Shown: one piece after another, positions 24,063-26,303 of the stretch
Position numbering within the stretch: the stretch's first letter is position 1
Layout of the letters: every line of letters begins with the position of its first letter
Assembly: GCF_900232105.1 (NCBI RefSeq)
Contig: NZ_LT934425.1
Span: forward strand, 3,090,001 to 3,122,000
Direction: 5' to 3'
Length of the DNA stretch: 32,000 nucleotides
DNA from: Candidatus Kuenenia stuttgartensis
GTDB taxonomy: Bacteria > Planctomycetota > Brocadiia > Brocadiales > Brocadiaceae
Position numbers and translations under genes: made by a program
The notes under the pieces: generated by a model
The model's input: the letters and a program-made list of their open reading frames with translations, nothing else
The model's database searches: none
Told to the model about the DNA's origin: nothing

Positions 24063-25271
24063 ATGACTGATTTTGAAACTATTAAGCAAATACTCCAAGA
24101 GGTCACTTTGGCAATATCAAATAGAGTTAATGATTCCACCGATTTATGGGATGCTTATTTCGATTGTAACAAGGAAGGTCTCTTTAAAGAACTCGACATG
24201 GCAATCTTGGATTGCAAAGAATTAAAGATATTCGAAGATGCCAGTCTCTGTGTGGGTGATATTATTATTTTTTTCAATTTTGAACGTTTACGTGAGTGGT
24301 TGGTAATTCATTCGATGAAAACAGATACAAACAAATCTATTTCTGCTATCCAACGACTTTTACTCGGAGAACCCTTTTTTGCTACGGCAGTGCTAGCATT
24401 GGCTAGAGTATCACTCCCAAAAACAATTCAGCTTGGGAATAATGTCACCTTATGTGAGTTTTCTTCCAATGAATTTCTCAATCAATCTAAAGACGAAAAT
24501 ATTGAGCACCATGAGATTGACGTTCATCATATTAGTGCCGCAATCACTGTTGAATTCGAGCATCCGGTACATTTGGGACCACGCGGGCATTATAGACCTT
24601 CTATTTATATGGGCATGGTAGATGAATTTTTTTATGCGCTGCAAAAAGCCTATCGCGCCTTGTTGATTCTTGGCATTGTTCGACCACAACCACCTGCATT
24701 GGTTGGTCACGCGATCTTTGTTCCTTTGGATTTTCCCGGGGCATATAGCAAAAACCTTCACCATTCGGTAAAAATTGATTCATACTGGCCTCGACTTGAA
24801 TTTAACGATGATGAGTGCTCTTTGGCAAAGTCCCTCTTTGAGTCTTTTGAAAATCTTAGTCCAAATCTTAGGGACTCGCTCTTTATACCAATGAGTCGGT
24901 TAAGATCAGCAATGACCGAGTTCAAAGACTTTGCAGATGCTGCTATTGACTTGGGCATTGCTCTTGAATCAATATTGATAAAATCTGACGAATCTACAGA
25001 AATTACTTATCGAATATCCATGAGAGGTGCACGTTTATTGGGTAAGACACTTGATGAACGACTCGATCTCAAAAAAAAACTAACTAAAATTTATGGAATG
25101 CGATCTAAGGCTGCTCATCGCGGTATAGTGCAATCAAAGTCTATAGATAAGGAAGTATTACTTTTAAGGGAAGGATTTAATCTAACGGCAAAAGCAATTC
25201 AAATTGTACTCACCAATAAACTTTATACCGACAAAGACCTTGATTCACTCTTATTACAATCAGAATCTTAA
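24063..25271 (+). CDS. Hypothetical 402-aa protein with a C-terminal HEPN-like domain (Rx4H)
   Basis: The C-terminal 110 aa read AAIDLGIALESILIKSDESTEITYRISMRGARLLGKTL..LTKIYGMRSKAAHRG. The R347-x4-H352 motif is at nt 25101-25118. The N-terminal 280 aa were not recognised. Confidence 0.6.
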   Translation: MTDFETIKQILQEVTLAISNRVNDSTDLWDAYFDCNKEGLFKELDMAILDCKELKIFEDASLCVGDIIIFFNFERLREWLVIHSMKTDTNKSISAIQRLLLGEPFFATAVLALARVSLPKTIQLGNNVTLCEFSSNEFLNQSKDENIEHHEIDVHHISAAITVEFEHPVHLGPRGHYRPSIYMGMVDEFFYALQKAYRALLILGIVRPQPPALVGHAIFVPLDFPGAYSKNLHHSVKIDSYWPRLEFNDDECSLAKSLFESFENLSPNLRDSLFIPMSRLRSAMTEFKDFADAAIDLGIALESILIKSDESTEITYRISMRGARLLGKTLDERLDLKKKLTKIYGMRSKAAHRGIVQSKSIDKEVLLLREGFNLTAKAIQIVLTNKLYTDKDLDSLLLQSES

Positions 25272-25463
25272 TACAGGAATAGTGAATATTTTCTATATCT
25301 ATTACACTATGATAATTAATAAAATGTTCATTATCTGGATTTATTATGTACTTCTGCCTATATAAAAATTGTTTTAAATTTTTTTATTCTTTTAATGGCA
25401 ATACATTAAACTTTTATATTTATTCTCAATGTTTTTACAAAAGATGTATTATTAAAATTCAAT

Positions 25464-26303
25464 ATGAAACGTTCTTTTAAGCATTCTCCGAACACTAAAA
25501 ACCAAATTATGCACCAAGAAGAAAAAGCAATCCTTTTGTCTGTAGATCGTGCCCTTTCCTCCTCATCAAATTCACAAACGATCGGAAGTAATGGCGAATT
25601 ACCACTAATTCAATTTTTCAATCGTTACTTACCTCTTACATTAAAAGCTACTACTGGATACTTTATCACGCCATCAGGAATATTATCGCCACAAATTGAT
25701 ATTATAATATTTGATTCAAGATACCCATTGCTTTCTGAAAACACCGATGGATCCGTTTTAACCATGCTTCATTCAGTAATTGCGTGCATAGAAGTTAAAA
25801 CGAATCTCAAATCAAGTGATATTAAGAAAGCATGGACAAATAGCATCAAAATAATGCAATTGGCATCGGAAATAGAAGGATACGGAACAATTTATGGTTG
25901 GCAATCAATCCTTAATAGTTTAATTGCTTATCGTTGCAGACAAACATTAGATACTATTAAAAACGTATTTAAATCCTTACGTACAAATCCTCGTTCAAAT
26001 CTATTAACAAATTTCTCGATAGAAATTTTACGTATCCCTGAAAAGAAACAATCTAATAAATTCGAATTTGGTGGGTCGTTGCACTTTGAACCATATAAAA
26101 ATTCAAATAAAGATAGTGCTTTTGTTGAGTTTTTACCTACTTTTGCTAAAAGCTATTCACCTCTTTCAGATTTTTACTATCGCACAGTTTATGATTGTTA
26201 TTACACATTAGGTCGGAGGAATTATTCATACAATGAAATTGGATGGCATTTCACAAAATATATGTCATGGGCAACTGCTTCAGTAAATTTAATAAATAAA
26301 TGA
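25464..26303 (+). CDS. Hypothetical 279-aa protein with a PD-(D/E)xK nuclease-like core
   Basis: The core reads GSNGELPLIQFFNRYLP...SPQIDIIIFDSRYPLL...VIACIEVKTNL. Candidate residues are D79/D84, and E110-V-K112 at nt 25791-25799. From memory it resembles the DUF6602-type restriction-endonuclease-like pattern. Confidence 0.55.
   Translation: MKRSFKHSPNTKNQIMHQEEKAILLSVDRALSSSSNSQTIGSNGELPLIQFFNRYLPLTLKATTGYFITPSGILSPQIDIIIFDSRYPLLSENTDGSVLTMLHSVIACIEVKTNLKSSDIKKAWTNSIKIMQLASEIEGYGTIYGWQSILNSLIAYRCRQTLDTIKNVFKSLRTNPRSNLLTNFSIEILRIPEKKQSNKFEFGGSLHFEPYKNSNKDSAFVEFLPTFAKSYSPLSDFYYRTVYDCYYTLGRRNYSYNEIGWHFTKYMSWATASVNLINK

What the first reader, a model, noticed from the sequence alone, without database searches (positions are those of the whole stretch)
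24063..26303. Unassigned two-gene cassette: large HEPN (Rx4H) protein plus a PD-(D/E)xK-like nuclease in an AT-rich islet beside BREX
Seen in sequence:
- Two co-directional ORFs of 402 and 279 aa, 192 bp apart, lie in the most AT-rich part of the window.
- The first ends in a helical domain with an acidic first helix (AAIDLGIALESIL) and YGMRSKAAHRG, an exact R-x4-H at nt 25101-25118. This is the HEPN RNase signature. Its 280-aa N-terminal region matches nothing I recognise.
- The second has GSNGE..(30 aa)..QIDIIIFD..(25 aa)..CIEVK, the layout of a restriction-endonuclease-fold (PD-(D/E)xK) core.

Context: the pair lies between a decayed ParE-type TA pair and an orphan tRNA att-like fragment. 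It is 3.4 kb from the distal gene of a BREX locus (brxL) and about 0.25 kb from an MNT/HepT module.

Inference: this is a candidate abortive-infection or defence module that pairs an RNase-type and a DNase-type effector. One of the two could instead act as a sensor. I cannot match this architecture to a named system from memory.
Basis: partly seen in the sequence, partly recalled or inferred. Interest (0 to 1): 0.78.

Follow-up and report, generated by a model that had tools for sequence, protein, structure and literature searches.

The report
Two unrelated solo defence nucleases, adjacent
The two genes are real and are an RNA-cutting (HEPN) and a DNA-cutting (NucC-like) enzyme as guessed, but they are not a conserved pair: one matches the known single-gene phage-defence system Damona, the other belongs to a large, unnamed family distantly like the defence protein ApeA.

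Summary
Observation confirmed. ORFs 24063-25271 (402 aa) and 25464-26303 (279 aa) lie 192 bp apart in the most AT-rich part of a Ca. Kuenenia stuttgartiensis window. All quoted motifs are present and are invariant or nearly so in homologues.

Protein 1 hits no Pfam, NCBIfam or PADLOC model, yet a profile search finds thousands of ~400-aa relatives. A profile of its C-terminal domain significantly matches only the solved ApeA HEPN defence RNases. That alignment places R347/H352 on Ec2ApeA R502/H507. The 245-aa N-terminal alpha/beta domain matches nothing.

Protein 2 is a DUF6602, full-length NucC-fold PD-(D/E)xK nuclease (Foldseek E 3e-13). It is 51% identical to a V. cholerae superintegron DUF6602 cassette protein, the domain that defines the single-gene anti-phage system Damona.

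The "two-gene cassette" is not supported. None of 78 non-redundant protein 1 family loci outside Kuenenia has a DUF6602 neighbour. None of six independent protein 2 homologue loci has a protein 1 relative. About 13 protein 1 family loci lie beside type III R-M genes, most of them between mod and res; others lie on plasmids beside Abi and Wadjet-like genes.

Best reading: two independent stand-alone defence nucleases stacked in a decayed islet beside BREX. Interest is moderate and rests on protein 1's uncharacterised family.

The parts
24063..25271 (+). Protein 1 gene (402 aa): unnamed family with an N-terminal alpha/beta domain and a C-terminal HEPN RNase domain
   Evidence: ORF. The ATG at 24063 is supported by homologues that align from residue 1-5. 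No Pfam, PADLOC or NCBIfam hit. Profile search finds 9,786 representatives at E<=1e-3 and 435 at E<=1e-30; the 150 listed mostly span most of the profile. AF2 model pLDDT 85.5, pTM 0.84.
24063..24797 (+). Protein 1 N-terminal domain (residues 1-245), mixed alpha/beta, function unknown; inferred sensor or regulatory domain
   Evidence: AF2 secondary structure shows helices 4-59, 73-100 and 179-206 plus about 8 strands. No Pfam hit when scanned alone. No meaningful Foldseek PDB match. W79, L96, G115 and P225 are conserved.
24798..25268 (+). Protein 1 C-terminal HEPN domain (residues 246-402)
   Evidence: All-helical in the model. The domain-only profile A3 hits Ec3ApeA at 7.6e-6, Ec2ApeA at 2.7e-5 to 7.8e-4 and Ec1ApeA at 0.088, and no other family at E<0.1. 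Weak Foldseek hit to HEPN protein 4nqf (prob 0.57).
24939..24977 (+). Helix AAIDLGIALESIL with invariant E302 (HEPN first-motif helix)
   Evidence: D296, L297 and I299 >=90% conserved and E302 invariant. Aligns with ApeA LNLWIALES.
25101..25118 (+). R347-x4-H352 catalytic motif
   Evidence: R347 >=90% conserved; H352 and G354 invariant. Aligns to Ec2ApeA R502...H507. R502A is the catalytic mutant used for the ApeA structure.
25272..25463 (.). 192-bp spacer, 18% GC, no terminator-like site; one weak promoter-like site at 25423-25452
   Evidence: The number of promoter-like sites in the region is no higher than in shuffles, so operon status is undetermined.
25464..26303 (+). Protein 2 gene (279 aa): DUF6602, NucC-fold PD-(D/E)xK nuclease, Damona-type
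   Evidence: Pfam PF20247 E 5.7e-19 (68.4 bits, cutoff 27). PADLOC PD_DExK 1.6e-20 and NucC 5e-12. PDB sequence hits are NucC. AF2 pLDDT 89.7. Foldseek top 14 hits are all NucC, E 3e-13 to 8e-11, TM up to 0.74. 51% identity, E 2e-95, to V. cholerae SCI protein P0048. Near-invariant residues upstream of M16 favour this start over the 264-aa NCBI call.
25698..25799 (+). Protein 2 catalytic core: D79 (QIDIIIFD) ... E110-V-K112 (CIEVK)
   Evidence: Invariant in 40 homologues. Aligns with NucC QIDVVIYD...FEVK.
23023..23877 (+).
   Evidence: Only the ORF translations were inspected. Not tested further.
26462..26509 (+). Context: tmRNA 3'-end (acceptor/T-arm) fragment, a likely att remnant at the right edge of the islet
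   Evidence: Rfam RF00023, 17.8 bits, E 2.7e-4, below gathering score. Single copy in the window. No intact gene.
26554..26748 (-). Context: HepT-like fragment (truncated HEPN toxin)
   Evidence: Pfam HepT-like_2 E 2.7e-11, but only profile positions 1-44 of 110. Called as 64 aa in other assemblies.
26904..29282 (+). Context: strain-specific IS (DruA/DUF4338 + Tn5-type transposase) inserted between the HepT fragment and MNT
   Evidence: Absent from L008 and L009; the alignment breakpoints overlap by 15 bp. Domains.
29368..29664 (-). Context: MNT (Polbeta nucleotidyltransferase)
   Evidence: Pfam PF18765 E 1.8e-7.
29755..31779 (-). Context: brxL, the distal gene of a BREX locus (PglZ and BrxC follow beyond the window)
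   Evidence: PADLOC BrxL E 1.2e-289. PglZ and BrxC are present in L008 and L009.

Best explanation
The region holds two evolutionarily independent, stand-alone nuclease genes of the kind used in anti-phage defence. They have accumulated side by side in a decayed, AT-rich mobile islet next to a BREX locus in Ca. Kuenenia stuttgartiensis.

Protein 1 belongs to a large family of ~400-aa proteins with no curated model. A C-terminal HEPN RNase domain of the ApeA type is fused to a family-specific N-terminal alpha/beta domain. Inferred mechanism:
- Like other HEPN enzymes, it dimerises through the HEPN domain to build a composite R347/H352 active site.
- The N-terminal domain, or an oligomeric state, keeps it off.
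- On a phage-derived cue it cleaves cellular RNA (tRNA anticodon loops or mRNA) and stops growth, i.e. abortive infection.

Protein 2 is a Damona-type DUF6602 protein. It is a NucC-fold PD-(D/E)xK DNA endonuclease with catalytic D79/E110/K112 that works as a single gene. Its trigger is unknown.

Shown here: fold and motif assignments, family sizes, lack of co-occurrence, and genomic contexts. Inferred: RNase and DNase activities, abortive-infection logic, and a sensor role for the protein 1 N-terminal domain.
For: Independence of the two genes:
- A protein 2 family HMM finds no DUF6602 ORF within the flanks (up to 7 kb) of any of 74 genome loci and 7 metagenome loci of the protein 1 family, except in Kuenenia itself.
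- A protein 1 family HMM finds nothing in six independent protein 2 homologue loci (contexts).
- All-vs-all clustering of 554 neighbour ORFs shows no universal partner for protein 1.
- The genes differ in GC, 37.8% against 32.3%.

Protein 1 is a HEPN protein:
- E302, Y344, H352 and G354 are invariant and R347 is >=90% conserved.
- The domain profile hits only ApeA among 177,635 PDB sequences, at E 7.6e-6 to 7.8e-4, aligned on Ec2ApeA R502/H507 (catalytic mutant R502A).
- RefSeq names plasmid-borne family members 'HEPN domain-containing protein'.

Defence context of the protein 1 family:
- About 13 of 79 loci lie within or beside type III R-M Mod/Res genes, some with overlapping stop and start codons.
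- One member on a C. pauculus conjugative plasmid lies between a putAbiC gene and JetABC-like genes near an integrase.
- In Kuenenia it lies beside BREX and MNT.

Protein 2:
- Pfam DUF6602; NucC by sequence and by fold over the full length; catalytic residues invariant.
- 51% identical, E 2e-95, to a V. cholerae O1 superintegron DUF6602 cassette protein.
- DUF6602 defines Damona, an experimentally found single-gene anti-phage cassette.
Against: - No activity or phenotype data exist for either Kuenenia protein.
- Curated ApeA models (Pfam HEPN_Apea, PADLOC ApeA) do not hit protein 1 or its relatives.
- Structural support for the HEPN fold is weak: best HEPN hit 4nqf at E 0.6, prob 0.57.
- Some homologues of both genes lie among housekeeping genes with no visible defence neighbours (L001/L002; L010-L014 and L094).
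- The pair is adjacent, co-directional and kept in three Kuenenia assemblies, so local cooperation cannot be excluded.
- That P0048 is the tested Damona protein is inferred from its DUF6602 domain and superintegron context. It was not verified by accession.
- Several protein 1 family loci are short contigs, so their flanks were only partly sampled.
Confidence: 0.65

Rival explanations
1. One reading: protein 1 and protein 2 form one two-component system. Either both are effectors (RNase plus DNase), or one senses and the other kills. They would be co-transcribed and functionally dependent on each other.
For: - The genes are co-directional, only 192 bp apart, with no terminator-like site between them.
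- The arrangement is identical in three Kuenenia assemblies.
- NucC-type nucleases elsewhere are effectors that need an upstream signal. That point is from my general knowledge of CBASS and type III CRISPR, plus the NucC structure titles.
Against: - 0 of 78 non-redundant protein 1 family loci outside Kuenenia carry a DUF6602 gene.
- 0 of 6 independent protein 2 homologue loci carry a protein 1 relative.
- The closest homologues of each gene (45-49% and 57-59% identity) occur without the other.
- The three Kuenenia assemblies are 98.9-99.9% identical, so they are not independent evidence.
- Damona acts as a single gene.
- The two genes differ in GC.
Confidence: 0.1
2. Protein 1 is not autonomous. 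It is a guard or back-up RNase coupled to a DNA-modification-based defence (type III R-M in other phyla, BREX here), in the manner of PrrC with EcoprrI. It would be held inactive by the partner system and released when a phage disables that system.
For: - About 13 of 79 family loci lie within or beside type III mod/res genes, co-directional, some with overlapping stop and start codons.
- In Kuenenia strains without the IS, the gene lies about 2.1 kb from brxL.
- The 2013 HEPN survey describes this logic for PrrC/RloC and notes that ApeA/BMEI1217 members are embedded in R-M operons.
Against: - Most family loci (about 65 of 79) show no Mod or Res cluster in the flanks sampled.
- In Kuenenia the gene is on the opposite strand from BREX and is separated from it by protein 2, a tmRNA fragment and the HepT/MNT remnant.
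- The R-M-embedded members are the most divergent branch, some with only partial alignment of the N-terminal domain.
Confidence: 0.15
3. One or both genes are not defence genes. Protein 1 would be a toxin-like or housekeeping HEPN RNase (or an inactive HEPN-fold protein), and protein 2 a DNA repair or recombination nuclease or a decaying island passenger.
For: - Homologues sit among housekeeping genes: L001/L002 near rpsU, rsfS and H+-PPase; A. butzleri between guaA and selO; Ideonella.
- The surrounding islet is decayed, with a broken TA pair, a HepT fragment and no integrase.
Against: - Both ORFs are intact with all catalytic residues conserved.
- Distribution is patchy across phyla, and neighbours differ from locus to locus.
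- R-M, Abi, Wadjet-like, integrase and superintegron contexts recur.
- A DUF6602 cassette protein has an experimentally observed anti-phage phenotype.
Confidence: 0.1

Closest known systems
ApeA (single-protein HEPN anti-phage system; structures 9hxb-9hxn)
   Same: - Single polypeptide with a C-terminal HEPN RNase domain after an N-terminal region with no known homology.
- The two HEPN motif helices align: DLGIALES with LNLWIALES, and Y344-x2-R347-x4-H352-x-G with Ec2ApeA Y499-x2-R502-x4-H507-x-G.
- ApeA-clade members are also reported embedded in R-M operons.
   Different: - Protein 1 is 402 aa against about 590 aa for ApeA.
- Curated ApeA models do not hit it.
- ApeA has about 105 residues between the two motifs, against about 20 here.
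- ApeA has N-terminal and Mid domains described as predominantly helical. Protein 1 has one mixed alpha/beta domain with no detectable similarity.
- ApeA's tRNA anticodon cleavage, doughnut oligomers and deoxydinucleotide activation are untested here.
Damona (DUF6602 single-gene anti-phage cassette of the V. cholerae sedentary chromosomal integron)
   Same: - Protein 2 carries DUF6602 above Pfam's threshold and also matches PADLOC Cas PD_DExK and NucC models, the same profile pattern the authors describe for Damona.
- It is 51% identical over its full length to the V. cholerae O1 superintegron DUF6602 protein.
- Homologues occur as solo genes.
   Different: - It lies in a planctomycete chromosomal islet rather than in an integron cassette.
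- The identity of P0048 with the tested Damona protein was not verified by accession.
- No phenotype is known for the Kuenenia protein.
NucC (cA3-activated endonuclease effector of CBASS and type III CRISPR)
   Same: - Same fold over the whole protein (Foldseek E 3e-13, TM 0.53-0.74).
- Same catalytic D...ExK core.
   Different: - Only 14-17% identity.
- No CD-NTase or type III CRISPR genes next to it here or in homologue loci.
- Conservation of the cA3 pocket was not examined.
PrrC/RloC-type R-M-linked HEPN anticodon nucleases
   Same: - A HEPN RNase with an N-terminal regulatory domain.
- A subclade of the protein 1 family is embedded in R-M operons (concept).
   Different: - There is no ABC-ATPase domain.
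- The R-M partner is type III rather than type Ic.
- Most family members have no R-M neighbour.
DARNA (PD-T7-3) HEPN defence protein
   Same: A single-protein, tRNA-cleaving HEPN Abi system of similar size.
   Different: The domain order is opposite: in DARNA the HEPN domain is N-terminal (R117x4H122) and the C-terminal domain is Pds5-like. No sequence match was seen.

Membership tests
HEPN superfamily (protein 1, C-terminal domain) | Conserved R-x4-6-H catalytic motif | tested here: met
   The R347-x4-H352 motif is present. H352 is invariant and R347 >=90% conserved in 40 diverse members.
HEPN superfamily (protein 1, C-terminal domain) | Significant sequence or profile similarity to proteins with a solved HEPN domain | tested here: met
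   Domain profile A3 against PDB: Ec3ApeA 7.6e-6 and Ec2ApeA 2.7e-5 to 7.8e-4, aligned on both motif helices.
HEPN superfamily (protein 1, C-terminal domain) | Four-helix up-down HEPN bundle fold | tested here: inconclusive
ApeA family | Hit to curated ApeA models (Pfam HEPN_Apea, PADLOC ApeA) | tested here: not met
   No such hit for protein 1, for 40 family members or for 34 isolated C-terminal domains.
ApeA family | Three-domain architecture (N-terminal + Mid + split HEPN, about 590 aa) | tested here: not met
   Protein 1 is 402 aa. The full-length profile matches ApeA only over the HEPN motif helices. The spacing between the motifs is about 20 aa against about 105 aa.
ApeA family | tRNA anticodon cleavage, doughnut-shaped oligomers, activation by a small ligand | not testable with these tools
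   Requires biochemistry and cryo-EM.
DUF6602 / Damona | Pfam PF20247 domain above the gathering score | tested here: met
   68.4 bits against a cutoff of 27, E 5.7e-19.
DUF6602 / Damona | Full-length homology to the V. cholerae superintegron DUF6602 protein | tested here: met
   51% identity over 280 columns, E 2e-95, to P0048. P0048 lies in an array of small co-directional cassette genes. That P0048 is the protein tested as Damona is inferred, not verified.
DUF6602 / Damona | Single-gene organisation with no conserved partner | tested here: met
   Six independent homologue contexts share no neighbour.
DUF6602 / Damona | Anti-phage phenotype | not testable with these tools
   Reported for the V. 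cholerae cassette. Not known for the Kuenenia gene.
NucC (CBASS / type III CRISPR effector) | NucC fold with the D...ExK active site | tested here: met
   The top 14 Foldseek hits are all NucC, E 3e-13 to 8e-11. D79, E110 and K112 are invariant and align to the NucC core.
NucC (CBASS / type III CRISPR effector) | Genomic association with a cA3-producing CD-NTase or type III CRISPR locus | tested here: not met
   None appears in the window ORFs or Pfam-annotated neighbours of L008, nor in homologue loci. The only cyclase nearby is a class III cyclase with weak PycC hits.
NucC (CBASS / type III CRISPR effector) | Conserved cA3-binding pocket and trimer/hexamer assembly | not tested
   Needs a residue-level structural superposition and multimer modelling.
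Conserved two-gene (HEPN + PD-(D/E)xK) system | Co-occurrence of homologues of both genes across unrelated genomes | tested here: not met
   0 of 78 non-redundant protein 1 family loci and 0 of 6 protein 2 loci outside Kuenenia.

The most novel reading that the evidence does not exclude
Protein 1 represents a widespread family with no curated model: a compact, single-gene abortive-infection RNase. It would be an ApeA-type HEPN domain driven by a new ~245-aa alpha/beta sensor domain. In some phyla it has been recruited into type III R-M operons as a second line of defence. The family has hundreds to thousands of 50%-identity clusters across Nitrospirota, Poribacteria, Chloroflexota, Proteobacteria, Planctomycetota and plasmids.
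Probability: 0.45. Interest if true: 0.55.

Novelty: new variant of a known kind. Interest (0 to 1): 0.38.

Why it matters
The result corrects a tempting over-reading. Adjacency inside a defence island does not make a system, and here the pair dissolves once homologues are examined.

What remains useful:
- Damona-type DUF6602/NucC-fold nucleases extend to anammox Planctomycetes. They are solo genes in many phyla, which raises the question of how a NucC-fold enzyme is controlled without a cyclic-oligonucleotide synthase.
- The 402-aa HEPN protein flags a very large family with no Pfam, NCBIfam or PADLOC model. Its HEPN domain is closest to ApeA, its N-terminal domain is new, and one branch is wired into type III R-M operons. 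That makes it a concrete, testable candidate for a new single-gene defence family, and for studying how different sensor domains switch on the same HEPN core.

Tried and rejected
- Direct scans of protein 1 against Pfam, PADLOC and NCBIfam gave nothing. This held for 40 family members, 34 isolated C-terminal domains and the RefSeq-named plasmid members.
- DARNA was rejected as a relative because its domain order is opposite.
- Esos, the HEPN-only V. cholerae cassette, could not be tested. No accession or sequence was found in the text or the held supplement.
- I asked whether the Vibrio sp. member (L038) is an integron cassette. No attC-like core sites were found, so the idea was dropped.
- The search for related loci failed with the diverse alignment A2 and worked with A1.
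- The last word-indexed protein search, with A2, returned only 14 unnamed proteins.
- No protein 1 relatives were found in the phage collection.
- The promoter and terminator scan of the spacer was uninformative. Promoter-like sites were no more frequent than in shuffles, and there were no terminators.
- A search for a second copy of the tmRNA fragment, to delimit an island, found none.
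Full report
**1.
The window carries two co-directional ORFs, 24063-25271 (402 aa, protein 1) and 25464-26303 (279 aa, protein 2), separated by 192 bp. 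All quoted peptides are in the translations: AAIDLGIALESIL, YGMRSKAAHRG, GSNGE, QIDIIIFD and CIEVK. The R347-x4-H352 codons fall at nt 25101-25118, by arithmetic. The region is the most AT-rich in the window, with 1-kb GC of 0.31-0.35 between 22.5 and 26.5 kb. The islet is 33.7% GC against 40.5% for the window, and the spacer is 18%. An identical protein 2 is recorded from Candidatus Kuenenia stuttgartiensis. Two other Kuenenia assemblies carry the same region at 98.9-99.9% identity.

**2. Context, with corrections.**
brxL is confirmed (PADLOC E 1.2e-289), and PglZ and BrxC follow in the other assemblies. The MNT gene is a Polbeta nucleotidyltransferase. The 'HepT' gene matches only positions 1-44 of the 110-position HepT-like_2 profile, so it is a fragment.

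Window 26904-29282 is an insertion absent from the other two assemblies. It encodes a DruA/DUF4338 + Tn5-type transposase. The 3.4-kb distance to brxL is therefore strain-specific.

The 'tRNA-like' fragment is a tmRNA 3'-end fragment at 26462-26509 (Rfam E 2.7e-4, below gathering score). No intact tRNA or tmRNA gene is present, and there is no second copy in the window. Together with the broken TA-like ORFs at 23.0-23.9 kb, this looks like the decayed remnant of an island that once integrated at ssrA. That last step is inference.

**3. Protein 2.**
- It hits Pfam DUF6602 (E 5.7e-19, 68 bits against a cutoff of 27).
- It hits PADLOC PD_DExK (1.6e-20) and NucC models (5e-12 and 8.8e-14).
- By sequence it matches solved NucC proteins over the catalytic core, with QIDIIIFD...CIEVK aligned to QIDVVIYD...FEVK.
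- An AF2 model built from 40 homologues (pLDDT 89.7) gives NucC as the top 14 Foldseek PDB hits. These have E 3e-13 to 8e-11, probability 1.00, TM up to 0.74 and about 250 aligned columns.
- E45, Q77, D79, D84, E110 and K112 are invariant.

The only paper in the library that mentions DUF6602 describes Damona. This is a single-gene cassette of the V. cholerae sedentary chromosomal integron, one of 16 cassettes found to protect against phage. The authors report the same Cas PD_DExK and CBASS-endonuclease matches for it.

Protein 2 is 51% identical (E 2e-95, full length) to P0048, a V. cholerae O1 DUF6602 protein. P0048 sits in a typical array of small co-directional cassette genes. I infer, but could not verify by accession, that P0048 is Damona.

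Protein 2 homologues at 45-60% identity are spread across many phyla. In six independent contexts they share no neighbour:
- a sugar-biosynthesis cluster;
- between guaA and selO in Aliarcobacter;
- the superintegron;
- an MGE-like stretch of small ORFs;
- housekeeping genes in Ideonella;
- directly downstream of an EAD7 protein in a Flavobacteriales MAG.

**4. Protein 1.**
It hits nothing in Pfam, PADLOC or NCBIfam. The word-indexed search found only seven relatives. An exhaustive profile search with those seven found 9,786 representatives at E<=1e-3, 3,139 at E<=1e-10 and 435 at E<=1e-30. The 150 listed are mostly ~400 aa and cover most of the profile. Weaker hits may share only the C-terminal domain.

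In 40 members that are 15-48% identical to protein 1, E302, Y344, H352, G354 and P225 are invariant. D296, L297, I299, R321, R333 and R347 are >=90% conserved. None of the 40 hits any Pfam model at E<=0.01, and there is no consistent PADLOC hit.

The decisive evidence is sequence-profile based:
- The full-length profile hit Ec3ApeA at E 8e-4.
- A profile of the C-terminal domain alone (34 sequences) hit only ApeA proteins among 177,635 PDB sequences: Ec3ApeA 7.6e-6, four Ec2ApeA variants 2.7e-5 to 7.8e-4, and Ec1ApeA 0.088.
- Both motif helices align. DLGIALES aligns with LNLWIALES. Y344..R347....H352.G aligns with Ec2ApeA Y499..R502....H507.G.
- R502A is the catalytic mutant used for the best ApeA structure.

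So the HEPN call is well supported. The closest characterised relative is ApeA, a single-protein abortive-infection tRNA anticodon nuclease that forms doughnut oligomers and is switched on by deoxydinucleotides.

Protein 1 is not an ApeA family member, for four reasons:
- Curated ApeA models miss it.
- It is about 190 aa shorter.
- ApeA has about 105 residues between the motifs against about 20 here.
- Nothing N-terminal aligns.

RefSeq independently labels plasmid-borne members 'HEPN domain-containing protein'. These are confirmed family members at E 4.7e-77 and 7.4e-51. I could not find which model drives that name.

**5. Is it a cassette? No.**
Seven metagenomic loci of protein 1 relatives contain no protein 2 homologue. 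A scan of one genome per species returned 74 more loci from Nitrospirota, Poribacteria, Chloroflexota, Alpha/Beta/Gammaproteobacteria, Gemmatimonadota, Saccharibacteria and others. An HMM of the protein 2 family found DUF6602 ORFs only in Kuenenia and in the loci fetched with protein 2 itself. Conversely, the protein 1 HMM finds nothing in six protein 2 loci.

The three Kuenenia assemblies are near-identical, so they do not count as independent conservation. Some loci are short contigs, but most have 7 kb on each side.

**6. What protein 1's family is associated with.**
Clustering 554 neighbour ORFs from 79 loci found no universal partner. The largest neighbour clusters are:
- a ~620-655-aa methyltransferase in 13 loci, hitting N6_N4_Mtase and TypeIII_RM_meth;
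- a ~860-aa ResIII helicase-nuclease in 10 loci;
- often a DUF3800 protein.

In these loci, mainly Poribacteria, the HEPN gene is co-directional. It lies between or next to mod and res, sometimes with overlapping stop and start codons. This matches the R-M-embedded HEPN theme, which the 2013 HEPN survey also noted for its 'ApeA/BMEI1217' clade.

These R-M-embedded members are the more divergent branch. In several, only part of the N-terminal domain aligns.

On a conjugative Cupriavidus pauculus plasmid, a family member lies between a putAbiC gene and JetABC-like genes, near an integrase. On a C. pinatubonensis plasmid, one follows an integrase and an HNH gene. Other members sit among housekeeping genes.

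**7. Mechanism (inferred).**
- Protein 1: HEPN dimerisation gives a composite R347/H352 site. The family-specific N-terminal domain, possibly together with the conserved R321/R333/Y344 surface, gates activity. Activation by an infection cue leads to RNA cleavage (tRNA or mRNA) and growth arrest. The analogy to ApeA, PrrC and DARNA supports the logic, not the details.
- Protein 2: a metal-dependent DNA endonuclease using D79/E110/K112. Because no cyclic-oligonucleotide synthase accompanies it here or elsewhere, its control must differ from NucC's cA3-driven hexamerisation, or it responds to a signal made elsewhere.
- Nearby cyclase: a class III cyclase 2.7 kb upstream has weak PycC hits. Nothing links it to protein 2.

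**8. Verdict.**
The finding is real. The fold guesses are right, but the system-level interpretation is not. Protein 2 is a new member of a known kind (Damona/DUF6602, NucC fold). Protein 1 is a new variant of a known kind: a single-protein HEPN defence candidate with an ApeA-type catalytic domain and a novel N-terminal domain, from a large family with no curated model. Interest is moderate (0.38) and comes from protein 1's family and its type III R-M link, not from the pairing.

Noticed in passing
window 26904-29282: A 2.4-kb IS encoding a DruA/DUF4338 domain fused to a Tn5-type transposase (Tnp_DNA_bind, DDE, Dimer_Tnp_Tn5). It is present in this strain and absent from two other Kuenenia assemblies. 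It sits between the HepT-like fragment and MNT. The alignment breakpoints overlap by 15 bp, which may be a target-site duplication.
   Followed up: partly
window 26554-26748 (-) and 29368-29664 (-): The MNT/HepT module looks decayed. The HepT-like ORF covers only positions 1-44 of the 110-position profile and is called as 64 aa in other assemblies, so it probably lacks the part of the domain that normally carries the catalytic motif. MNT is intact.
   Followed up: partly
window 26462-26509 (+): A 48-nt fragment matching the 5' stub and the 3' acceptor/T-arm of tmRNA (Rfam E 2.7e-4, below gathering score). It is single-copy in the window and no intact ssrA or integrase is present. It is plausibly the att remnant of an old ssrA-integrating island that brought in the AT-rich islet.
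   Followed up: partly
window 21534-22730 (+), with 20862-21419 (+): A class III nucleotidyl cyclase (Guanylate_cyc) with a hydrophobic C-terminal segment gives weak hits to Pycsar PycC models (best 2.8e-11). The upstream 185-aa ORF has no hits. It could be a Pycsar-like module or an ordinary signalling cyclase.
   Followed up: no
window 15253-16068 (-): A second ORF with a DruA/DUF4338 domain (271 aa), possibly a fragment of another copy of the same IS family.
   Followed up: no
L035, L052, L080, L085 (also L040, L042, L062, L068, L084): In Poribacteria MAGs the protein 1 family gene lies inside type III R-M operons (mod - HEPN - [DUF3800] - ... - res), sometimes with overlapping stop and start codons. 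A ~980-aa and a 212-aa unannotated protein recur in three of these loci.
   Followed up: partly
L095 3697-5861: In a Flavobacteriales MAG the DUF6602 homologue starts 27 bp after a 425-aa protein with an EAD7 (effector-associated domain 7) hit. This hints that some DUF6602 nucleases are wired to adaptor-domain conflict systems.
   Followed up: no
L091 (C. pauculus plasmid NZ_CP044066.1, 24046-36489): A protein 1 family member (422 aa, RefSeq 'HEPN domain-containing protein') sits between a putAbiC gene and DUF3375/DUF4194/SbcC-like (Wadjet-type) genes near an integrase, forming a plasmid defence island.
   Followed up: partly
window 25464-25508 and 24063-24107: Public gene calls look too short. 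NCBI starts protein 2 at M16 (264 aa), but residues conserved in homologues (H7, N13) lie upstream. One assembly calls protein 1 as 387 aa, whereas homologues align from residue 1-5 of the 402-aa ORF.
   Followed up: partly
window 24063-26303: The two genes differ in composition (37.8% against 32.3% GC) and are separated by an 18% GC spacer. This is compatible with separate acquisition.
   Followed up: no
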